64,000 bases of DNA from an uncultured Gammaproteobacteria bacterium. Its GTDB lineage: Bacteria; Patescibacteriota; Patescibacteriia; SBBC01; CAIJZX01. This document shows, in pieces, positions 2,749-42,391 of this stretch. The notes below the pieces were generated by a model that worked only from the letters and a program-made list of their open reading frames with translations, did not search any database and was not told where the DNA came from. The stretch is taken from positions 100,998 through 164,997 of the forward strand of contig CAYLHT010000001.1 in assembly GCA_964383765.1 (NCBI GenBank), written 5' to 3'. Positions within the stretch are counted from its first letter, which is position 1, and every line of letters starts with the position of its first letter. A program made the translations under genes and the position numbers.

Positions 2749-3186
2749 CTACTCTTCAGGACGCGATCGCGTGCTTTCGCGGTTCGGCTTATGCATGGCC
2801 TGACGCGGGTCGATCCAGCCCACGAATTGGATCAGATCAATCGCCAGGTCAAGACGACCGAGGCAGAAACAGCTGGTGGCCAGCTGTTGCCACAGCCGCG
2901 TGTCATAGATGGCGTACGTGACGCCATCCATCGCGGTCAACAGTGCATGCCGGTGCTTTCCGCGTTGCGAGAAGTCGAGCGATCGCTGGAGCCGGTCATC
3001 AGCCATGGTCTGGTTCGAGGCGGGATACAGACCCGGAATCTCACGCTTGAGATTCTGAACTATGGCTCGAACCTCAGGGGTGATGTACGCCGGTAGCGGC
3101 CGGCTTTGGTCTGCCCGGAGACGCGTGGCTAAACACTCAAGGCTGATCGCAGCGATCTGCAGAACCTCCGGAAGATCGTTCGACAC
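2749..3186 (-). CDS. Hypothetical protein (145 aa)
   Basis: ORF between clpP and the DHH gene on the same strand. No motif recognised. Confidence 0.4.
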   Translation of the reverse strand: MSNDLPEVLQIAAISLECLATRLRADQSRPLPAYITPEVRAIVQNLKREIPGLYPASNQTMADDRLQRSLDFSQRGKHRHALLTAMDGVTYAIYDTRLWQQLATSCFCLGRLDLAIDLIQFVGWIDPRQAMHKPNRESTRSRPEE

Positions 3187-3233
3187 GATAACCTCCGCAG
3201 TGAATGGTGATGAGGTGAAGAGCTGGAGTGACC

Positions 3234-4238
3234 CTACGTGCTTGCCGAAAGACTGTCAACCACTTTCCAACCGCCGCCAGATTTGATTATTTTCCCACGC
3301 ATCCGAAATCCAGCGGCTTTGGTGTGCCCGCCGCCCCCGAATTGTTTGGCAATCGCGGCGACGTCAATCTCGCTGGTCGTGCGCAGGCTTCCCTTAATGA
3401 ATCCCCCGCGTTCCTCCTTTACTACCAAAGCGACTTTCCCATCACTCAAACTGTTGAGGAAATTAGAAATTCCGGTTGCCGCTCGATCATCCACGCCGCA
3501 CTCATGAAAATCTTGCAGGGTCAGCACCGTGGAGACGACGCCGGTCGCTGTGTTTAAGTTGAGACGCGATAGCGCCCGGCCCCATAACTGAAGTGTGCCA
3601 ATTGATTTATTGCGCATGGTGGCGGCGGTGATCGTCCGGTGATCCGCACCATAGCGCATCAGCTCCGCCGCGATTTCCATTGACTCTTGATTCGTATTCA
3701 AATGGGCAAAATGTCCGGTGTCCGTCAGAATTCCGGTCAGCAACGCCGTGGCCACGTGGGGCGTGAGCGGAACACCAAGGTGTCGTAGCAAACGGAACAT
3801 AATAATTGTGTTGGAACTAGCGCTAGCATCAATAAAATTATGATCAACCGCGGATTGGCCTTTGTGCTCGATCACGGTTGGATGATGATCGATGTTGACG
3901 ACGCTGGTTTTTGTTTGGTCACGTTGAATAAGCTCGTCAGCCAATGGACTGCGTTTAATGTCGCCGGTGTCGAAAATAATTACGAGTGGAAAGGCGTGAA
4001 CGCTGTCCGGCAACTCCGACATAATCCGATGGGGTTTCGTGAGGTACCCAAACATAGCCGGAATCGGGTCAGGCGAATACAGAATTGATTCCTGGCCGTA
4101 GTGCCGGACAACGTGATCCATGGCCAGCATTGAACCGAGGCTATCCCCGTCCGGCTGGGTGGTCATGGTCAGCAGCACACGTGGACTGGCTTTCAACAGT
4201 CGGTCGAGGGTTTGGGCGAAATGTTGGTCGGGGGGCAT
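3234..4238 (-). CDS. DHH/DHHA1 family phosphoesterase (NrnA-like oligoribonuclease/pAp phosphatase)
   Basis: 334 aa with DGDSLGS, FDTGD, IDHH and a C-terminal GGGH motif. Confidence 0.85.
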   Translation of the reverse strand: MPPDQHFAQTLDRLLKASPRVLLTMTTQPDGDSLGSMLAMDHVVRHYGQESILYSPDPIPAMFGYLTKPHRIMSELPDSVHAFPLVIIFDTGDIKRSPLADELIQRDQTKTSVVNIDHHPTVIEHKGQSAVDHNFIDASASSNTIIMFRLLRHLGVPLTPHVATALLTGILTDTGHFAHLNTNQESMEIAAELMRYGADHRTITAATMRNKSIGTLQLWGRALSRLNLNTATGVVSTVLTLQDFHECGVDDRAATGISNFLNSLSDGKVALVVKEERGGFIKGSLRTTSEIDVAAIAKQFGGGGHTKAAGFRMRGKIIKSGGGWKVVDSLSAST

Positions 4239-4709: not shown

Positions 4710-4955
4710 ATGAAAGCGAGGTTGAAGATGGCAGTGTCTAGAGTCACTCGGGTTCACCGCGAATCTGAACGAATGGAAGCCCGACGGGTTCGGCTGCTTG
4801 AACGGCACAGGATTCCGCACCAACTCTTGGGTGACTGGCTGGCCGAATCGACCCACCATTGGCATCGGATTTCACCCTCGGCTCGCCGAGCGGTGCGGAC
4901 ACTCCTGACGCATCTCGAACAGACGCGACGACCAACGTACCCCGCTGAGGATTGA
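4710..4955 (+). CDS. Hypothetical Arg-rich protein (81 aa)
   Basis: Trimmed from ORF 4620..4955 to the ATG at 4710, just after the upstream stop. No motif. Confidence 0.3.
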   Translation: MKARLKMAVSRVTRVHRESERMEARRVRLLERHRIPHQLLGDWLAESTHHWHRISPSARRAVRTLLTHLEQTRRPTYPAED

Positions 4956-4987
4956 TCAGGACGATCCGCCGAAAGTGAGGTGAATGA

Positions 4988-5191
4988 ATGCCCAGGCGTA
5001 ATCGACGACGTCCGGGCATCTACCGGACTGCGTTGCGGTGCAACCGCTGTAGTTTGGTACAGACCATCTTCCGCAAGTCGAACCGCCGCCAACAGCCGGG
5101 GCATATCAAGACCATGTGGTGCTTCCGGTGTAAGTGTTCAACCCAGCACACCGAGCTGCGGTCGCTCAGATCGAAACCAAGCCGAAAGTGA
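4988..5191 (+). CDS. Small zinc-ribbon protein (2x CxxC, 67 aa)
   Basis: CNRC ... CFRC(KC) pairs about 24 residues apart, basic N-terminus, and RBS GAAAGTGAGGTGA upstream. Confidence 0.45.
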   Translation: MPRRNRRRPGIYRTALRCNRCSLVQTIFRKSNRRQQPGHIKTMWCFRCKCSTQHTELRSLRSKPSRK

Positions 5192-19693: not shown

Positions 19694-20128
19694 CTAACTC
19701 CACGGCCAGATATTCGTAGACTCGGCTGAGAGACGTTCCGCGCCCCGCACACGCCCTTGTTTGAGCATGAGTTCGGGTCGAACGAACGCGTCGAGTTGCA
19801 GCAAGCTGCGGAGCAAAACGACCAGCTGTGCTTTCGTTACTCCGAAGTCACAACCCGCGCATATCAAGCGCCGGTCCAACGGGTAACTCCCGGTGGCGGA
19901 AATCAGATGTCCTTGCCAGCGCGACCGAACCCAATGCGCAAAGTGGGTGGCCTCGACCGGACAATCCACATGTCCGATGACGATGGCACCGTTGGTTCGA
20001 TCTAGCGGGAGAATCGACTCTGATACAGCCAGCACAGGCTGCCACATGAAGTGAGCCAGGGGCTCGACCTTGGGCCGGAGGAATCCAGCCCGTTCAGCGA
20101 AGCGGTCAAGATAGACCACGTTGGGCAT
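19694..20128 (-). CDS. Hypothetical protein (144 aa)
   Basis: Trimmed to MPNVVYLDRF, preceded by AAGGAGGACCT. Confidence 0.45.
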   Translation of the reverse strand: MPNVVYLDRFAERAGFLRPKVEPLAHFMWQPVLAVSESILPLDRTNGAIVIGHVDCPVEATHFAHWVRSRWQGHLISATGSYPLDRRLICAGCDFGVTKAQLVVLLRSLLQLDAFVRPELMLKQGRVRGAERLSAESTNIWPWS

Positions 20129-20210
20129 AGGTCCTCCTTGGAAAAGGGGCGACGGACTGACCATCTGTATCAAGTCCGTGTTCACCCGTCAAGTTCAGCC
20201 AAGATTTTTC

Positions 20211-20239
20211 TTGACACCCACCGCAGGGTTTGGTAGTCT
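20211..20239 (+). promoter_or_regulatory. Candidate sigma70-type promoter for nusA
   Basis: TTGACA (20211-20216), a 17-nt spacer, then TAGTCT (20234-20239). Confidence 0.4.
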
Positions 20240-20297
20240 GGTTCTACGACCAATACTTGACTGTATTGGTGATTTGACTATTCACCTTTCGCCGTCC

Positions 20298-21692
20298 ATG
20301 GCCCAATCCGACCTCAAACAAGCGATTCAGGAAATCTGCCAAGAGAAAAATATCCCGTACGACTCGGTGATTGAAACGATCGCGGCCGCTTTAGCCGTCG
20401 CCTATCGGAAAGACTTTGGTGAGAAGAATCAAAATATCGTGGTTGATTTTCATCCAGAAGACGGGACCAATCGGGTCTGGGATGTGAAGACGGTCGTTGA
20501 CGACAAACTTTACGATGAGTTTTTGGCTGAACAGAAAGACCGTGAGCAAGCTGAAGCCGATGGCAAACTGGAAGAATACTTGGAGAAGAAACGACAAGAA
20601 GAAGAGGCGAAGCGCACTGCGATGATGGCCCCCTCGGCGTCGCCGAGTGGCGCCGCCACTCCCCCTGGGTCCCCCCCGGTGCCCCCCCTTGTTCAAGGGG
20701 GGGAGACAGGGGGGGTAGAAGAGCGCTTTGATCCGAAAAAGCATATTGCTTTGACGGAAGCGAAAAAGCTCGACAAAAAACATGAACTCGGCGATGAAAT
20801 TAAGACCGAATTATTTCCGCCAGCGGCGTATGGCCGGATGGCTGCTCAAACCGCCAAACAAGTCATCATCCAGCGCATCCGCGAAGCCGAACGCGACACC
20901 GTCTACAAAGAATTCAAGGGTCGTGAAGGTGAAATGCTGACAGCTATGATCCAACGAGTCGAAGGTCGGATGGTGTTGATTGATTTGGGTCACGCGACGG
21001 CCATCATGCCGCCGCCGGAGCAGATTGAACGTGAACACTACCGACCGGGCGATCGCGTGAAAGTCTACATTTCGACGGTCAACATGACGCCCAAAGGCCC
21101 GGAAATTGTGGTGTCGCGCACCCATCCGGAAGTTGTCCGACAACTCTTTACGGTGGAAGTGCCAGAACTGCAAAACGGTTCAGTCCAGATTAAAGGTATT
21201 GCCCGTGAAGCTGGACTGCGCACCAAAATTGCCGTCTGGTCAGAAACCAAGAACATCGATCCGGTTGGCTCACTGGTCGGTCAACGTGGCACGCGCGTCC
21301 AAACCGTGATTTCAGAGCTCGGCGGCGAAAAAATCGATATTATTGAATGGTCTGATGACCCGGTGAAATTTATCACCAATGCCTTGTCACCGGCCAAAGT
21401 CATCTCGATTAAACTCGATCAAACCAACCATGCCTGCACGGTCGAAGTTAAAGACGACCAACTCTCACTCGCCATCGGAAAAGCCGGACAGAATGTCCGC
21501 CTCGCGGCAAAGCTGACCGGCTGGAAAATCGACTTAGTCGGTGAATCCGGCGCCACGCCGGAGTCGGTGACGACTGAGGGCGGCGAGACCGGTGAAGCTG
21601 CCAAAACTGAAACTCCCGCGGCCGAGTCGACTGAAGCTCCTCCTGAAACTCCAGCCGAGGAAACAAAGCCAGAAGCAGAAACAACTGCCTAA
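20298..21692 (+). CDS. nusA: Transcription termination/antitermination factor NusA (with low-complexity insertion and acidic tail)
   Basis: Trimmed to MAQSDLKQAIQEI. N-terminal domain, S1 region (GEMLTAMIQRVEGRMVLIDLG), two KH domains (GQRGTRVQTVISELGGEKIDII, LAIGKAGQNVRLAAKLTGWKIDL). Confidence 0.95.
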   Translation: MAQSDLKQAIQEICQEKNIPYDSVIETIAAALAVAYRKDFGEKNQNIVVDFHPEDGTNRVWDVKTVVDDKLYDEFLAEQKDREQAEADGKLEEYLEKKRQEEEAKRTAMMAPSASPSGAATPPGSPPVPPLVQGGETGGVEERFDPKKHIALTEAKKLDKKHELGDEIKTELFPPAAYGRMAAQTAKQVIIQRIREAERDTVYKEFKGREGEMLTAMIQRVEGRMVLIDLGHATAIMPPPEQIEREHYRPGDRVKVYISTVNMTPKGPEIVVSRTHPEVVRQLFTVEVPELQNGSVQIKGIAREAGLRTKIAVWSETKNIDPVGSLVGQRGTRVQTVISELGGEKIDIIEWSDDPVKFITNALSPAKVISIKLDQTNHACTVEVKDDQLSLAIGKAGQNVRLAAKLTGWKIDLVGESGATPESVTTEGGETGEAAKTETPAAESTEAPPETPAEETKPEAETTA

Positions 21693-28984: not shown

Positions 28985-30433
28985 TTAAAGTCCCGATAAA
29001 TCAGTCACCGCTGCGGGCGGGGTTTGATCGAGACCGTTATATCCGAAATTAGCGTCGGTCACTTTCGTATCCCCGGTATTAACGAATTTGATGACGGTGG
29101 GCGTAGTGGGGCTAAACCCAGTCAGGGGCGGCGTGCCATAGTCGAGCGTGTCTGGCTCAACTTGCACCCACATGGTTGTCGAGGGGAGTTCCCCAAAGAA
29201 GAAGGATATCGGAATCCGGTAAGTACCGTACACGGGGTGAGCCCGGGTGCCCGTCATTCCGGTTTGGGTGGACATGAAGACGGTGTCGGTATTCGGGTCG
29301 AATTGTCCATCACCATTATCGACGAACAGGTTCACCACCAGATCACTCGACCCATTCTCCCAGGAATCAATTTTGCCATTTGAGTTTTCATCAATCCAGA
29401 CTCGACCCGAGACCTGAGCGGTTGATGTCGGTGAAAGAGTAAAAACATTATTCGGCCATGTCAGTCGTTCGAAGTCTAACCACCCACCACCCGAGCCGAC
29501 TCGGCCAAAATATTCAGTCCCAGCTTCATCGGTAAAGTATTCGGATGCATATTCATCGCCGCCGACAGCCGGTAAGTCGGTGTAGCCGGTGTACGGGCCA
29601 GTGATTGATGGTGCGGTGGCGTACTTCAAGCATTTAGAACTACGCCAAGCACAATTACCGGTCCAGACGAGCCACCAGGTTCCGTTGTGCTGAAAAACAT
29701 GAGGGGATTCAGCGGTGTACCCGCCAGTCGTGAAAATATATCCAGCATCAGACCAGGTGGTCAGGTCGGGCGAAGTCAGCAAACCCACGATGGCGGGGTT
29801 GGCGATCCCGGTCAGCGGATCCTGGTTGATCGTCTTCGCCCGAGTGGTGTAGAACATTAGCCACTGATTGTGTTCCGCGTCCCAGGTGACGTACGGATCA
29901 CGACATTCCGTGTTGTACCCGTTGGTATTCGGGTCCCAGTACACCCAGCTGACGGTTGAGCAATCGACCACCGGATTACCACTATCTTTTGTCCAGGTGG
30001 TGCCGTCTGGTGACGTGGCGTGACCGATTTGCTGGATTAAATGATTATTGCTGAGCTTCACCCCGGCGTACCACAAGTGATACACCCCCTGCGTCTGTAC
30101 CGTCGCGGGTGCCCAAACGTCATACGAATCCCAAGCACCGGTTGGACCGACCGGAATGGCTGGCCCAATATCGTTCCAGAGGATTAAGTCTTTGGAGGTC
30201 GAATGAATCAACCCTGGGCTACCCGGCCCGGCTGGATCGGGGTTGTAGTAGGCGTGAATGCCAATCAGATGCCAGGTATCACCGACCTTGAAGATCGTAA
30301 AGTCTTTAGTGCGGGTTCCATCCGATGCATAGTACGATCCGGCGTTGGCTGATCGGTCTCCGCCGAAGATGACAACCGAACAGACGAAGGCGAGGATCGT
30401 CAAAGTGATTCCAGTTCGTCGGGAGCTTTGCAT
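28985..30433 (-). CDS. Secreted glycoside hydrolase-like five-bladed beta-propeller (GH32/43/68-like) with C-terminal SdrD-B/Cna-B-like domain
   Basis: 482 aa. Signal/TM sequence, repeated W-rich blades, RDP motif (CRDPYV), ESP acid motif, then GRVWIDENSNGKIDSWENG. Confidence 0.65.
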   Translation of the reverse strand: MQSSRRTGITLTILAFVCSVVIFGGDRSANAGSYYASDGTRTKDFTIFKVGDTWHLIGIHAYYNPDPAGPGSPGLIHSTSKDLILWNDIGPAIPVGPTGAWDSYDVWAPATVQTQGVYHLWYAGVKLSNNHLIQQIGHATSPDGTTWTKDSGNPVVDCSTVSWVYWDPNTNGYNTECRDPYVTWDAEHNQWLMFYTTRAKTINQDPLTGIANPAIVGLLTSPDLTTWSDAGYIFTTGGYTAESPHVFQHNGTWWLVWTGNCAWRSSKCLKYATAPSITGPYTGYTDLPAVGGDEYASEYFTDEAGTEYFGRVGSGGGWLDFERLTWPNNVFTLSPTSTAQVSGRVWIDENSNGKIDSWENGSSDLVVNLFVDNGDGQFDPNTDTVFMSTQTGMTGTRAHPVYGTYRIPISFFFGELPSTTMWVQVEPDTLDYGTPPLTGFSPTTPTVIKFVNTGDTKVTDANFGYNGLDQTPPAAVTDLSGL

Positions 30434-30582
30434 ATAATTATTTTACAGCATTTGCCACACTTCCCGAAATTGTCAGGATGAGATGAGTGCACGGTGCCCC
30501 CATCCTAATTGCAAAAACTCAAAAATCACAAGTTTTTGCGTTTCCTGTTCTCGGATTAAAAATTTCGAAGGATTTTCTCTGT

Positions 30583-30658
30583 TGGTCGGGGTACCGAGAC
30601 TCGAACTCGGGACCTCCTGCTCCCAAAGCAGGCGCGCTTCCAGGGCTTCACCGTCCCG
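30583..30658 (-). pseudogene. Degenerate/chimeric tRNA-Pro(TGG) copy with encoded CCA
   Basis: The 3' two-thirds is perfect: GCGCG-CCTGC-TTTGGGA-GCAGG-AGGTC-CCGAG-TTCGAGT-CTCGG-TACCCCG-A-CCA. The 5' strand CGGGACG-GT-GAAG pairs at only 4 Watson-Crick positions plus one G:U of the 7 acceptor positions, and at 1 of 4 D-stem positions. Confidence 0.55.
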
Positions 30659-30759
30659 ATTACGGGACAGGGCTCAGCCCGTCTCGGCGGTCGCGAGTGA
30701 AGCAGTTCACTCGCTGTTTCCGCCTCGACCCAACTTCGCTACTCGACATATGCCCGCAG
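30659..30759 (-). other. Hairpin-rich spacer between the two tRNA-Pro copies
   Basis: Read on the minus strand: a 9-bp hairpin GCGAGTGAA-CTGC-TTCACTCGC (30693-30714) enclosed by CGAGGCGG/CCGCCGAG; GGGC-TGA-GCCC; and GTCCCG-TAAT-CGGGAC, which sequesters the 5' end of the degenerate tRNA. There is also a tRNA D-arm-like TAGCGAAGTTGGGTCGAG. Confidence 0.5.
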
Positions 30760-30832
30760 TCGGGGCGGCGAGACTCGAACTCGCGGCCTCCTGCTCCCAA
30801 AGCAGGCGCGCTACCAACTGCGCCACGCCCCG
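30760..30832 (-). tRNA. tRNA-Pro (anticodon TGG)
   Basis: CGGGGCG-TG-GCGC-AGTTGGTA-GCGC-G-CCTGC-TTTGGGA-GCAGG-AGGCC-GCGAG-TTCGAGT-CTCGC-CGCCCCG-A. Confidence 0.92.
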
Positions 30833-30855
30833 ACAGCGGGCACTTACACGTGCGG

Positions 30856-30929
30856 TGCGCCCTGAGGGATTCGAACCCCCGGCCTTCTGGTCCGAAGCCA
30901 GACGCTCTGATCCGCTGAGCTAAGGGCGC
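30856..30929 (-). tRNA. tRNA-Arg (anticodon TCG)
   Basis: GCGCCCT-TA-GCTC-AGCGGATCA-GAGC-G-TCTGG-CTTCGGA-CCAGA-AGGCC-GGGGG-TTCGAAT-CCCTC-AGGGCGC-A. Confidence 0.92.
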
Positions 30930-31023
30930 AAGCGTGGCGTACCGTACCATGAATTATTTCTTTTTTCAAGACGAGGGCCGCCGCGTAACACGCGGCGGCC
31001 CAATTTCGAAGTATGATCTTATG

Positions 31024-40888: not shown

Positions 40889-40930
40889 ACCCAGTCCCAG
40901 TTTTTGTTATAACAAAAACTGGGACTGGGT
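40889..40930. repeat. 42-bp perfect palindrome flanked by TTGAC on both sides
   Basis: ACCCAGTCCCAGTTTTTGTTA | TAACAAAAACTGGGACTGGGT. Confidence 0.9.
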
Positions 40931-42361: not shown

Positions 42362-42391
42362 TCCAGCCCCAGTCACCTGACTGGGGCTGGA
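42362..42391 (+). terminator. Strong terminator-like hairpin
   Basis: 14-bp stem TCCAGCCCCAGTCA-CC-TGACTGGGGCTGGA. The T-tract is weak. Confidence 0.5.

What the first reader, a model, noticed from the sequence alone, without database searches (positions are those of the whole stretch)
30583..30759. Chimeric tRNA-Pro(UGG) copy with perfect 3' two-thirds, broken 5' strand and a hairpin-rich upstream spacer
On the minus strand, an intact tRNA-Pro(TGG) (30832-30760) is followed by about 100 nt of nested hairpins and then a second 73-nt Pro-like unit (30658-30586) plus CCA.

The two copies are identical over 26 nt (the D-stem 3' strand, the whole anticodon arm and the first three variable-loop bases). 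They differ in the T stem by compensatory changes: GCGAG/CTCGC versus CCGAG/CTCGG.

In the second copy the 3' acceptor strand TACCCCG cannot pair properly with its own 5' strand CGGGACG, which gives only 4 Watson-Crick pairs and one G:U. The D stem is also destroyed. The 5' strand instead pairs with the spacer (GTCCCG-TAAT-CGGGAC).

The spacer also contains a D-arm-like TAGCGAAGTTGGG fragment. This is the third tRNA locus in the window with a same-identity duplication. That could reflect integrase-type recombination scars at tRNA genes, or a regulated alternative fold.
Basis: partly seen in the sequence, partly recalled or inferred. Interest (0 to 1): 0.6.

Follow-up and report, generated by a model that had tools for sequence, protein, structure and literature searches.

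The report
Broken tRNA-Pro gene beside its replacement
The second "tRNA-Pro" is most likely the wreck of this bacterium's original proline tRNA gene, split by two inserted hairpins and made redundant by a different proline tRNA gene just upstream, and the same invade-and-replace pattern recurs at other tRNA genes of this little-known bacterial group.

Summary
On the minus strand an intact tRNA-Pro(UGG) (30832-30760) is followed by about 100 nt of hairpins and a second Pro-like unit ending in CCA.

The window comes from a Kerfeldbacteria-like member of the Patescibacteria. Positions 21-76 of the second unit are identical to the genuine tRNA-Pro(UGG) of another Kerfeldbacteria genome. The second unit is therefore the lineage-typical gene, and the intact upstream copy is the unusual one.

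The "spacer" consists of:
- a tRNA 5' fragment (30748-30730);
- an 87-nt insert in the D loop (30729-30643) that folds as exactly two hairpins (z = -8.2).

The acceptor 5' strand is damaged, so the unit is most likely a pseudogene.

The intact copy sits on an inverted repeat that extends its acceptor stem. The same window holds tRNA-Arg(CCT) and tRNA-Ala(CGC) genes, each on such arms, nested inside broken genes of the same anticodon. Syntenic relatives carry the "outer" gene uninterrupted.

No integrase lies within about 6 kb of the locus, so a classical att scar fits poorly. The insertion mechanism is unknown. No relative was available for the Pro locus itself.

The parts
30856..30929 (-). 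tRNA-Arg(UCG), the intact upstream neighbour (context; probably the same transcription unit)
   Evidence: ARAGORN and Rfam, 71.6 bits
30833..30843 (-). Left arm of the inverted repeat flanking copy 1 (GTGCCCGCTGT). With the right arm it extends the acceptor stem by about 10 bp.
   Evidence: Inverted repeat I10, 17 nt, 94% complementary. The fold shows a cloverleaf on an extended helix, z = -4.5. The arms resemble those around the tRNA-Pro(CGG) of Kerfeldbacteria L055 (CTCCCCGCAGT / CTGCGGGGAG).
30760..30832 (-). Copy 1: intact tRNA-Pro(UGG) with acceptor CGGGGCG/CGCCCCG, T stem GCGAG/CTCGC and no encoded CCA. This is the functional, probably incoming, gene.
   Evidence: Rfam 71.4 bits and ARAGORN. 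The exact 73-mer is absent from 185,579 species genomes. It matches the Kerfeldbacteria-type gene at 17/20 and 48/53 positions.
30750..30759 (-). Right arm of the inverted repeat flanking copy 1 (CTGCGGGCAT)
30730..30748 (-). F1: tRNA 5' fragment TGTCGAG-TA-GCGA-AGTTGG. It has a damaged acceptor 5' strand, U8 and A9, the D-stem 5' strand, and the D loop up to G18 G19.
   Evidence: TAGCGAAGTTGG matches the D arm of tRNA-Pro(GGG) genes in L050, L053 and L054 at 12/12, and the native TAGCGCAGTTGG at 11/12. GTCGAG-TAGCG resembles the outer 5' end GTCGAGGTGTAGCG of L055 minus 3 nt.
30681..30729 (-). H1: 49-nt hairpin module (GTC GA GGCGG AAACA GCGAGTGAA CTGC TTCACTCGC GA CCGCC GA GAC). It is the first part of the 87-nt insert in the D loop.
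   Evidence: MFE -27.3 kcal/mol, z = -4.9. Together with H2: -53.6 kcal/mol, z = -8.2, every base accounted for by the two hairpins.
30643..30680 (-). H2: 38-nt hairpin module (GGGCT GA GCC CT GTCCCG TAAT CGGGAC GGT GA AGCCC).
   Evidence: MFE -24.3 kcal/mol, 82% of the ensemble, z = -5.7.
30583..30642 (-). O3: the 3' part of the resident tRNA-Pro(UGG). It runs from the D loop (TGG-AA) through the D-stem 3' strand, anticodon arm, T arm and acceptor 3' strand TACCCCG to A73 and CCA.
   Evidence: Positions 21-73 are 53/53 identical to the genuine tRNA-Pro(UGG) of Ca. Kerfeldbacteria JACRFO010000043.1 (L046 2846-2921), and the CCA also matches. The Rfam tRNA local match scores 29.1 bits.
10305..10486 (+). 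Sister locus: tRNA-Arg(CCT) nested in tRNA-Arg(CCT). Outer 5' part 10305-10327, arm 10328-10346, intact inner tRNA 10347-10419, arm 10420-10437, outer 3' part 10438-10486.
   Evidence: Sequence. With the 110-nt insert removed, ARAGORN calls the outer a normal tRNA-Arg(CCT). The fold shows a cloverleaf on a long helix, z = -5.1. The nesting is also present in relative L091. The outer type is uninterrupted in relatives L093 and L097.
10717..10886 (+). Sister locus: tRNA-Ala(CGC) on a 16-bp helix inside a decayed tRNA-Ala. Outer 5' part 10717-10745, arm 10746-10763, inner tRNA 10764-10839, arm 10840-10853, outer 3' part 10854-10886.
   Evidence: 25-nt inverted repeat. Fold z = -7.6. The outer type is the only, uninterrupted tRNA-Ala(CGC) of relative L097, and the inner type is the only one of L094.

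Best explanation
The second unit is the remnant of the lineage's resident tRNA-Pro(UGG) gene, and it is no longer a working tRNA gene.

Its body is split in the D loop, after G18 G19, by an 87-nt insert made of two self-contained hairpin modules (H1, H2). Its 5' acceptor strand has lost 3 nt and carries a G3-to-A change. Everything from position 21 to the encoded CCA is still the unaltered Kerfeldbacteria-type sequence.

Proline decoding is provided by copy 1, about 100 nt upstream. Copy 1 is a tRNA-Pro(UGG) of a different sequence type, and short inverted-repeat arms prolong its acceptor stem.

The locus is one case of a recurrent invade-and-replace process in Kerfeldbacteria and other Patescibacteria:
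1. A complete tRNA of the same anticodon, carried between palindromic arms, or the arms alone as an 'empty' hairpin, lands in or next to a resident tRNA gene, usually in a loop.
2. The resident gene becomes redundant.
3. It decays, and in some lineages it is finally purged.

What is shown: the anatomy, the identity of the 3' part with a genuine tRNA, the defective acceptor stem, the recurrence of the pattern, and the uninterrupted 'outer' genes in syntenic relatives at the Arg and Ala loci.

What is inferred: that the Pro locus has the same history, that the remnant is non-functional, and that the hairpin modules are DNA-level insertions by an unidentified agent acting in trans (a small palindromic mobile element is the best guess).
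For: 1. Taxon. IF-2 homologues with names are Ca. Kerfeldbacteria or Patescibacteria.

2. Origin of the 3' part. The T arm plus acceptor 24-mer of copy 2 occurs in 15 species genomes. All but one occurrence lie in genuine tRNA-Pro genes, about half of them named Patescibacteria. L046 tRNA-Pro(UGG) is identical to copy 2 at 53/53 positions 21-73 plus CCA, but only at 8/20 positions 1-20.

3. The insert. It folds as exactly two hairpins, z = -8.2. Its borders coincide with the points where tRNA homology stops (AGTTGG|...|TGGAAGCGC).

4. F1 is a tRNA D-arm fragment, 12/12 to real tRNA-Pro genes.

5. Neither reading gives a tRNA. ARAGORN calls nothing for copy 2 as read or for F1+O3 spliced. Either becomes tRNA-Pro(UGG) after a 3-nt repair of the 5' acceptor strand. 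Rfam gives 29.1 bits against 71.4 for copy 1.

6. Same architecture elsewhere. It appears twice more in the window and in L045, L050, L054, L055, L091, L093 and L097.

7. Comparative evidence. L093 and L097 have the window's outer tRNA-Arg(CCT) uninterrupted. L097 has the outer-type and L094 the inner-type tRNA-Ala(CGC) as its sole gene.

8. Outer genes are usually defective. The window Ala outer lacks its anticodon loop. The L091 Arg outer lacks C56 and one acceptor base. The L097 Lys relic has a broken anticodon stem.

9. Enrichment. Same-tRNA fragments lie within 300 nt of 6/22 tRNAs in Kerfeldbacteria relatives, against 5/422 in viral contigs.

10. Arms recur with conserved termini. CCTGCC...GGCAGG occurs at the window Arg locus, in L091, and three times in L097 (four with a diverged Leu-side variant), there always inside a tRNA relic. 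TCCAGC...GCTGGA occurs at the window Ala locus, in L093, and as an empty hairpin at 42362-42391.
Against: - No relative could be obtained for the Pro locus itself, so 'resident' and 'incoming' rest on more distant Kerfeldbacteria (L046, L048, L049, L055).
- H1 and H2 have no second copy in the 64-kb window or in any fetched locus. Their membership of a mobile family is therefore by analogy.
- There is no consistent target-site duplication. The Pro locus may have a 3-nt TGG; the Arg locus has none.
- The Pro locus is not a clean nest. Copy 1 lies upstream of the broken gene, not inside it.
- The 3' 56 nt of the remnant show no substitution at all.
- The window's outer tRNA-Arg is structurally perfect. 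Its halves and arms are 100/109 identical to L091, although four-fold degenerate sites are near saturation (38-47% identity). That argues for purifying selection or for very recent horizontal spread, not for old neutral junk.
- There are no expression data.
Confidence: 0.65

Rival explanations
1. Classical att-site scar. A tyrosine-integrase element that targets the anticodon-loop sublocation of tRNA-Pro(UGG) integrated here and was later lost. It left a direct repeat of tRNA positions about 22-76.
For: - Homology of the second unit to tRNA-Pro starts sharply at position 21/22 and runs to the 3' end, as expected for an attP-type identity block.
- A viral contig (L035) carries a partial tRNA-Pro(UGG) copy that starts at the same position.
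- Clear 3'-partial copies of tRNA-Arg of the att type exist in the metagenome contigs L064, L073, L074 and L089.
Against: - No integrase, recombinase or transposase domain was found in the ORFs tested within about 6 kb or in the ORFs of at least 250 aa that were scanned.
- Only 101 nt separate the copies.
- A 5' tRNA fragment (F1) is present, and att duplication does not create one.
- Copy 1 is internally coherent. Its 5' acceptor strand matches its own 3' strand, so it is not a host-5'/element-3' hybrid.
- The 24-mer and 32-mer of copy 2 are absent from 2.9 million viral contigs.
- The sister loci are nests with both halves present.
Confidence: 0.1
2. A functional, interrupted tRNA gene. H1 and H2 would be an intron-like insert removed from the transcript, as archaeal non-canonical tRNA introns are, giving a second working tRNA-Pro(UGG). 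By extension, the nested outer tRNAs would also be functional.
For: - F1 and O3 joined at the shared TGG give a good D arm (TA-GCGA-AGTTGGAA-GCGC).
- The insert is exactly two closed hairpins.
- The 3' 56 nt are unmutated.
- The window's outer tRNA-Arg(CCT) is a perfect cloverleaf once the insert is removed.
- That outer gene is far better conserved against L091 than synonymous sites are.
Against: - The acceptor 5' strand of the spliced product cannot pair with TACCCCG (2 Watson-Crick pairs and 2 G.U of 7), and ARAGORN rejects it.
- The insert borders lie at the bases of two separate hairpins, so no bulge-helix-bulge motif can form.
- There is no group I intron match, and 87 nt is too short for one.
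- Most other outer genes are clearly defective.
- No bacterial enzyme for such splicing is known (established knowledge).
Confidence: 0.08
3. A structured non-coding RNA with its own role. The hairpins plus the tRNA-like 3' domain ending in CCA would act as a processing or stability element for the tRNA operon, a decoy for a tRNA-binding factor, or a switch between the H2 hairpin and an acceptor-like stem.
For: - The structure is very stable and well defined (z = -8.2, MFE 41% of the ensemble).
- H1 and H2 share an architecture: basal stem, symmetric GA/GA internal loop, second stem, tetraloop.
- The anticodon arm, T arm and CCA are intact.
- The unit probably lies in the same transcription unit as two tRNAs. 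No terminator-like site separates them.
Against: - No Rfam family matches other than tRNA.
- No homologue of the spacer was found in any fetched locus, in viral contigs or in metagenome contigs.
- The parts are explained more simply as tRNA fragments plus inserts, as at many other loci.
- The alternative acceptor pairing needs a 3-nt bulge.
Confidence: 0.07
4. Simple tandem duplication of tRNA-Pro followed by ordinary neutral decay of the downstream copy.
For: - The two copies are direct repeats 174 nt apart.
- In L097 an intact tRNA-Lys is followed by a relic that shares its trailer, which looks like a tandem duplicate.
Against: - All five differences in positions 21-73 are ones at which copy 2 equals the genuine L046 gene. 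Two of them form a compensatory T-stem pair. Copy 2 is therefore not a decayed copy of copy 1 but a different functional allele.
- The damage is confined to the 5' 20 nt and consists of indels and inserts, with no point changes in 56 nt. That is not how neutral decay looks.
Confidence: 0.05

Closest known systems
tRNA gene fragments left by integrase-mediated integration (att duplications at tRNA and tmRNA genes; Williams 2002, from my own knowledge)
   Same: A partial tRNA copy lies next to an intact gene of the same identity. Its homology starts near the anticodon arm and runs to the 3' end. The functional gene is kept intact while foreign DNA enters.
   Different: There is no integrase and no island, and the spacer is only 101 nt. 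5' fragments are present as well. At the sister loci a complete second tRNA is inserted between both halves of the resident gene, and the resident gene is not reconstituted. Function is replaced by a whole new gene instead of a restored 3' end.
Archaeal non-canonical and transposable tRNA introns, and split tRNAs (Fujishima et al. 2010, cited in PMC10714607; Sugahara et al. 2012, PMC3293823)
   Same: Short structured inserts sit at many tRNA positions, including the D arm, anticodon loop and T loop. Related inserts occur in different tRNA genes. Long helices bring the two halves of a tRNA together. tRNA fragments are linked to mobile DNA.
   Different: The organism is a bacterium. No bulge-helix-bulge motif can be drawn at the insert borders. 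Most interrupted genes are structurally defective, and an intact gene of the same anticodon always lies beside or inside them. Some inserts contain a whole tRNA.
[quoted passage not shown] 2026, PMC13011429)
   Same: Same phylum, and tRNA genes interrupted in a way that standard annotation tools miss.
   Different: Those introns are self-splicing ribozymes of a few hundred nt in the anticodon loop (position 35/36) of tRNA-Asn and tRNA-Asp. Here the inserts are 30-110 nt hairpins or hairpin-borne tRNAs, and they give no group I match. The paper does not mention tRNA-Pro, nested genes or pseudogenes.
Small palindromic repeat elements (REP/BIME and MITE-type elements; from my own knowledge)
   Same: Short GC-rich palindromic modules with conserved termini and variable interiors, present in several copies (CCTGCC...GGCAGG, TCCAGC...GCTGGA), encoding no protein.
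   Different: As far as seen here they are confined to tRNA genes and their remnants. Some copies carry a complete tRNA in the hairpin loop. There is no consistent target duplication. H1 and H2 of the Pro locus have no second copy in the data available.

Membership tests
Functional bacterial tRNA | Cloverleaf with a 7-bp acceptor stem, detected by tRNA finders well above threshold | tested here: not met
   ARAGORN makes no call. Rfam gives 29.1 bits, a local match to model positions 4-67, against a gathering score of 29 and 71.4 bits for copy 1. The acceptor has 4 Watson-Crick pairs plus 1 G.U as read, or needs a 3-nt bulge.
Functional bacterial tRNA | Conserved core nucleotides U8 and A14 and a normal D loop | tested here: not met
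   As read, positions 8 and 9 are AA and the D loop is the 5-nt TGGAA (alignment). The F1+O3 splice restores U8 and an 8-nt D loop, but not the acceptor.
tRNA pseudogene or gene remnant | Clear homology to a genuine tRNA of the lineage | tested here: met
   53/53 identity at positions 21-73, plus CCA, with L046 tRNA-Pro(UGG). F1 matches tRNA-Pro D arms at 12/12.
tRNA pseudogene or gene remnant | Disabling lesions, and an intact gene of the same anticodon available | tested here: met
   There is an 87-nt insert in the D loop and a 3-nt defect in the 5' acceptor strand. The intact tRNA-Pro(UGG) lies 101 nt upstream.
tRNA pseudogene or gene remnant | Not expressed as a mature, charged tRNA | not testable with these tools
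   No transcriptome or tRNA-seq data are available.
Integrase att-site duplication at a tRNA gene | Direct repeat of the tRNA 3' part from the crossover point to the 3' end | tested here: met
   58-nt repeat at 90% identity. Homology starts at position 21/22.
Integrase att-site duplication at a tRNA gene | Integrase gene and an integrated element between or beside the repeats | tested here: not met
   Pfam scans of the neighbours and of 26 of the 27 ORFs of at least 250 aa find no integrase, recombinase or transposase. The spacer is 101 nt.
Integrase att-site duplication at a tRNA gene | The intact gene is a hybrid of host 5' part and element 3' part, and there are no 5' fragments | tested here: not met
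   The two acceptor strands of copy 1 are mutually complementary and both differ from the native type. The 5' fragment F1 is present.
Archaeal-type (bulge-helix-bulge) tRNA intron | Both insert borders lie in 3-nt bulges separated by a 4-bp helix | tested here: not met
   The borders lie at the bases of two separate, fully closed hairpins. No helix joins the two borders.
Archaeal-type (bulge-helix-bulge) tRNA intron | Removing the insert gives an intact tRNA | tested here: not met
   ARAGORN does not call F1+O3. For the sister Arg(CCT) locus in the window this feature is met.
Archaeal-type (bulge-helix-bulge) tRNA intron | A splicing endonuclease is encoded in the genome | not testable with these tools
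   Only 64 kb of the genome are available.
Group I intron in a tRNA gene | Match to the group I ribozyme core, length of about 200 nt or more | tested here: not met
   No Intron_gpI match at E up to 10 in 30400-31000. The insert is 87 nt.
Palindromic mobile repeat (REP/MITE-like) | Palindromic or terminal-inverted-repeat structure | tested here: met
   H1 and H2 are near-perfect hairpins. Copy 1 and the inner Arg and Ala tRNAs are flanked by arms of 10-16 bp.
Palindromic mobile repeat (REP/MITE-like) | Several related copies in the genome or lineage | tested here: inconclusive
   H1 and H2 have no other copy in the window or in any locus. Arm families with shared termini do recur. CCTGCC...GGCAGG is found at the window Arg locus, in L091 and three to four times in L097. 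TCCAGC...GCTGGA is found at the window Ala locus, at 42362-42391 and in L093.
Palindromic mobile repeat (REP/MITE-like) | Target-site duplication, and a transposase acting in trans | tested here: inconclusive
   The Pro insert may have a 3-nt TGG duplication. The Arg insert has none. No transposase was seen in the window, and the rest of the genome was not available.

The most novel reading that the evidence does not exclude
Kerfeldbacteria and other Patescibacteria harbour small, protein-less palindromic insertion modules that home to the loops of tRNA genes. Some copies carry a complete tRNA of the same anticodon in their hairpin loop. The invaded gene is destroyed but its function is replaced on the spot, which produces 'Russian-doll' tRNA genes and a rapid, partly horizontal turnover of tRNA alleles. 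The Pro locus would be one such event, with two empty modules in the old gene and one loaded module beside it.
Probability: 0.4. Interest if true: 0.8.

Novelty: new variant of a known kind. Interest (0 to 1): 0.62.

Why it matters
Remnants of tRNA genes are usually read as footprints of integrases. Here the footprints have a different shape: whole tRNA genes on palindromic arms sit inside or beside broken genes of the same anticodon.

This occurs at three of the nine tRNA genes in one 64-kb window and in several independent Patescibacteria assemblies. In relatives the same gene is still whole.

If this is a dedicated insertion mechanism, three things follow:
- It would be a new way for mobile DNA to use tRNA genes as safe landing sites, by bringing a replacement gene instead of repairing the target.
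- It would explain how tRNA alleles are exchanged among these reduced, single-copy-tRNA genomes.
- It would show why standard tRNA annotation in these genomes can both miss genes and overlook pseudogenes.

Some interrupted copies are very well conserved. This leaves open, and makes testable, whether any of them are still used.

Tried and rejected
1. Synteny through the flanking proteins. Homologues of the GH43/32 protein (L001, L002, L006) and of DUF1761 (L005) lie in unrelated contexts without tRNAs. The two Logan contigs that carry the identical DUF1761 gene stop at or before the anticodon of copy 1.

2. Exact-pattern scans.
- The copy-1 73-mer is absent from the species genomes.
- The copy-2 53-mer is absent from the metagenome contigs.
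- The copy-2 32-mer and 24-mer are absent from the viral contigs.
- BLAST of the locus against phage records found only ordinary tRNA-Pro genes.

3. A scan with the tRNA-Arg(UCG) 3' end in metagenomes gave 32 loci, none a close relative. It showed an Arg...Pro(UGG) order in other Patescibacteria and some att-like partial Arg copies.

4. An in-silico search for a single deletion that turns the region into a tRNA (26,325 constructs). ARAGORN accepts too many weak acceptor stems, so the scan did not discriminate.

5. A search for a separate native 5' half in the window found none. Only the 5' part of copy 1 matches, at 3 mismatches. A split gene within the window is therefore rejected.

6. Rfam at permissive thresholds over the Pro locus, the Arg/Ala cluster and the L097 relics gave nothing but tRNA and chance hits. 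One was a sub-threshold YrlA match caused by tRNA likeness.

7. A sigma-70 promoter and terminator scan found nothing.

8. L035, the viral contig with a partial tRNA-Pro, has no integrase next to the copy.

9. Assembly artefact was considered and rejected. A chimeric join at the shared 26-mer would give one hybrid gene, not two units 174 nt apart. The same architecture also appears in assemblies made by different groups and assemblers.

10. Five literature searches found no description of nested tRNA genes or tRNA-borne hairpin modules in bacteria.
Full report

Yes. On the minus strand, ARAGORN and Rfam find tRNA-Arg(UCG) at 30929-30856 and tRNA-Pro(UGG) at 30832-30760 (71.4 bits).

A second Pro-like unit lies at 30658-30586, followed by CCA. 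It shares a 26-nt identical run with the first copy. Its T stem is CCGAG/CTCGG instead of GCGAG/CTCGC, and its acceptor 3' strand is TACCCCG.

The repeat finder reports 58 nt at 90% identity, 174 nt apart. ARAGORN does not call the second unit. The Rfam tRNA model reaches only its gathering score (29.1 bits, a local match at 30652-30590). The 177 nt are more stable than shuffled sequence (z = -3.75).

**2. What organism is this?**

The window encodes bacterial housekeeping genes, including IF-2, NusA, trigger factor and a proton-pumping pyrophosphatase. The named IF-2 relatives are Candidatus Kerfeldbacteria or Patescibacteria. Unnamed relatives reach 72-79% identity. This is a sparsely sampled lineage with small genomes.

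**3. The 26-nt identity does not indicate recent exchange.**

The 25-mer GCGCGCCTGCTTTGGGAGCAGGAGG occurs in 37 viral contigs. In 36 it lies inside a complete tRNA-Pro(UGG) gene with quite different acceptor and T stems; the remaining one (L035) is a 3' partial copy. It is simply the conserved core of this tRNA.

**4. Which copy is the native one?**

The T arm plus acceptor 24-mer of the second unit occurs in 15 species genomes. All but one occurrence lie in genuine tRNA-Pro genes. About half of the genomes are named Patescibacteria, four of them Kerfeldbacteria.

One of them, L046 (Ca. Kerfeldbacteria, JACRFO010000043.1), has a tRNA-Pro(UGG) whose positions 21-73 are 53/53 identical to the second unit, and its CCA matches too. 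Positions 1-20 match at only 8/20. Every one of the five differences between the two window copies in positions 21-73 is a position where the second unit equals this genuine gene.

The second unit is therefore not a decayed copy of copy 1. It carries the lineage-typical sequence. Copy 1 is the unusual allele, and its exact sequence is absent from 185,579 species genomes.

**5. Anatomy of the 'spacer'.**

tRNA homology reappears upstream, at 30748-30730. The sequence TA-GCGA-AGTTGG there matches the D arm of real tRNA-Pro genes at 12/12 (L050, L053, L054) and the native TAGCGCAGTTGG at 11/12. By my own estimate, such a match is expected about 2 x 10^-4 times by chance in 100 nt.

Between this fragment (F1) and the point where homology resumes (TGG-AA-GCGC, 30642 onward) lie 87 nt. 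They fold into exactly two closed hairpins with no base left over:
- H1, 30729-30681;
- H2, 30680-30643.

Together they give -53.6 kcal/mol, 41% of the ensemble and z = -8.2.

Joining F1 to the 3' part at the shared TGG restores U8, A9, a 3-of-4 D stem and a normal 8-nt D loop. The seven bases ahead of it (TGTCGAG) cannot pair with TACCCCG.

ARAGORN rejects both the unit as read and the spliced version. Either is accepted after a 3-nt repair of the 5' acceptor strand. F1 resembles the 5' end of a broken tRNA-Pro in Kerfeldbacteria L055 (GTCGAGGTGTAGCG) with GTG missing.

The unit is best described as a resident tRNA-Pro(UGG) gene split in the D loop by two hairpin modules and damaged in its acceptor stem.

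**6. Copy 1 sits on arms.**

The flanks of copy 1 (GTGCCCGCTGT ... CTGCGGGCAT) form an inverted repeat that prolongs the acceptor stem by about ten pairs. They resemble the arms around the tRNA-Pro(CGG) of L055.

**7. The same thing occurs twice more in this window.**

- *Arg(CCT), 10305-10486.* An intact tRNA-Arg(CCT) (10347-10419) stands on a long imperfect helix (CCTGCCCGCCATTGCCTGA / CTGGCGAAGGCAGGCGGG). The helix sits inside the D stem of another tRNA-Arg(CCT). When the 110 nt are removed, ARAGORN calls the outer gene a normal tRNA.
- *Ala(CGC), 10717-10886.* tRNA-Ala(CGC) stands on a 16-bp helix inside a tRNA-Ala. The outer gene keeps the G3.U70 pair but has lost its anticodon loop and the 3' strand of the anticodon stem.

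**8. Relatives show the direction of change.**

Contigs syntenic for the region from IF-2 through the tRNA cluster to thioredoxin were obtained from four relatives.

| Locus | IF-2 identity to the window | tRNA-Arg(CCT) | tRNA-Ala(CGC) |
|---|---|---|---|
| L091 | 79% | nested as in the window; outer lacks one acceptor base and C56 | outside the contig |
| L094 | 75% | one gene, inner-like type, no remnants | one gene, inner type, no remnants |
| L093 | 74% | outer type, single and uninterrupted | three-layer nest; outer helix TCCAGCACCTT/AAGGTGCTGGA shares its termini with the window's |
| L097 | 72% | outer type, single and uninterrupted | outer type, single and uninterrupted |

The simplest reading is invasion of a resident gene by a second gene of the same anticodon borne on palindromic arms, followed by decay of the resident halves, and finally their loss.

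**9. The pattern is widespread.**

- L045 (Saccharibacteria) has three tRNA-Pro(GGG) genes nested like Russian dolls.
- L055 has tRNA-Pro(CGG) inside a tRNA-Pro split at the anticodon, and the outer gene also carries two empty hairpins.
- L050 and L054 have tRNA-Pro fragments with hairpin inserts.
- L097 has an armed, intact tRNA-Lys followed 8 nt later by a tRNA-Lys relic with inserts after G18 G19 and in the T loop. This is the closest parallel to the Pro locus. L097 also has relics of Ala(UGC), Val and Leu genes.

In L097 the palindrome CCTGCCT[A/G]CCGGCAGGCAGG occurs three times, plus a diverged Leu-side variant, always inside tRNA relics. It shares its termini with the window's Arg arms.

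| Set of loci | tRNAs with a fragment of themselves within 300 nt |
|---|---|
| Kerfeldbacteria relatives | 6 of 22 |
| Genomes found with the Pro 24-mer | 6 of 27 |
| Window | 2 of 9 (3 with Ala, which fell below the threshold) |
| Metagenome contigs found with the Arg 29-mer | 5 of 90 |
| Viral contigs | 5 of 422 |

**10. What does not fit neatly.**

- Between the window and L091, four-fold degenerate sites are only 38-47% identical, which is near saturation. The outer Arg halves plus arms are nevertheless 100/109 identical, while the DNA just outside the outer gene cannot be aligned. If the nest was inherited vertically, the remnant is under selection. If not, the module has spread horizontally, using the tRNA halves as homology. 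I cannot tell which.
- The Pro remnant has no substitution in 56 nt. Its lesions are all indels or inserts.
- The Pro locus is not a clean nest, because copy 1 lies upstream of the broken gene.
- H1 and H2 have no second copy in the data I could reach.

**11. Rival explanations.**

- *Classical att scar.* The sharp start of homology at position 21/22 fits, and a viral contig has a partial copy with the same start (L035). Against it: no integrase in the ORFs tested within about 6 kb or in the ORFs of at least 250 aa that were scanned, the 101-nt spacer, the 5' fragment, and the coherent acceptor stem of copy 1.
- *Intron-bearing functional gene.* The broken acceptor, the lack of any bulge-helix-bulge or group I features and the defective state of most other interrupted genes count against it. 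The perfect outer tRNA-Arg keeps this reading alive for that locus.
- *Independent structured RNA.* No homologue was found anywhere, and no Rfam family matches.
- *Plain tandem duplication with decay.* Excluded by point 4.

**12. Verdict.**

The second unit is most likely a disabled resident tRNA-Pro(UGG) gene next to its replacement, one instance of a recurrent and apparently undescribed kind of tRNA gene turnover in Patescibacteria.

The mechanism of insertion is not established. A relative for the Pro locus itself, and expression data, are the missing pieces.

Noticed in passing
window 10305-10486 (+): tRNA-Arg(CCT) is nested inside another tRNA-Arg(CCT). The outer gene is split in its D stem by a 110-nt insert made of a long helix plus a complete tRNA. 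It reads as a perfect cloverleaf once the insert is removed. Annotation tools see only the inner gene.
   Followed up: yes
window 10717-10886 (+): tRNA-Ala(CGC) with CCA sits on a 16-bp perfect helix (TCCAGCCCCACTTCTG / CAGAAGTGGGGCTGGA) inside a decayed tRNA-Ala. The outer gene keeps G3.U70 but lacks its anticodon loop.
   Followed up: yes
window 10623-10718 and 13687-13718 (+); also L093 about 3560-3625, L094 about 4935-5010, L097 about 1080-1150: Three tandem 32-nt units, each with the palindrome ATGTTCC-NCGNG-GAACA, lie between the two tRNA-Ala genes. A fourth copy lies 3 kb away. The palindrome is conserved between the Ala genes in all syntenic relatives, which suggests a protein-binding or processing site.
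   Followed up: partly
window 42362-42391 (+): A perfect 14-bp hairpin, TCCAGCCCCAGTCA-CC-TGACTGGGGCTGGA, lies just after a stop codon and about 50 nt before tRNA-Cys. Its first and last 10 nt equal the arms around tRNA-Ala(CGC). It may be an 'empty' copy of the same module or a terminator.
   Followed up: partly
window 40889-40930: A perfect 42-nt palindrome (ACCCAGTCCCAGTTTTTGTTA / TAACAAAAACTGGGACTGGGT) lies directly after the VTT-domain gene.
   Followed up: no
window 20658-20716 (inside the NusA ORF 20121-21692): A run-rich inverted repeat (CCCCCCCGGTGCCCCCCC ... GGGGGGGAGACAGGGGGGG) lies inside the N-terminal part of NusA. The Pfam NusA_N match there is split in two, so this may be an insertion in the gene.
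   Followed up: no
L045 (Saccharibacteria MAG CAZGLK010000054.1), minus strand offsets about 2025-2460: Three tRNA-Pro(GGG) genes are nested like Russian dolls. Each outer gene is split after the anticodon. The inserts begin with a hairpin that has the loop AAATGTCTTT, and they are bounded by CGGGAATTTT / AAAATTCCCG.
   Followed up: partly
L097 (GCA_043784045.1) 13600-15450 (-): A cluster of tRNA relics. An armed, intact tRNA-Lys is followed by a Lys relic with two inserts. Ala(UGC) is nested, and there are Val and Leu relics. The repeated modules CCTGCCT[A/G]CCGGCAGGCAGG and GTTGCCAG[C/T]GGCAAGTCG.CGCTGCCC are shared between different relics.
   Followed up: partly
L050 1040-1285 compared with L053 5370-5390: Two related genomes differ at the tRNA-Pro(CGG) locus. 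L053 is clean. L050 has three extra upstream units, each a 5' half of the tRNA (broken after U32 U33 C34) with hairpin inserts plus the leader. Two of the units are identical 103-nt tandem copies.
   Followed up: partly
L064, L073, L074, L089 (metagenome contigs): These carry 3'-partial copies of tRNA-Arg whose homology starts at the anticodon loop and whose upstream sequence is unrelated. They are ordinary att-type remnants and make a useful contrast to the nested type.
   Followed up: no
L090 about 2790-3100 (-) and L059 about 3080-3200 (+): Downstream of tRNA-Arg(UCG) lie partial copies whose T loop (GGGGATTCGA | ... | AATCCC) is interrupted by a structured GC-rich insert.
   Followed up: no
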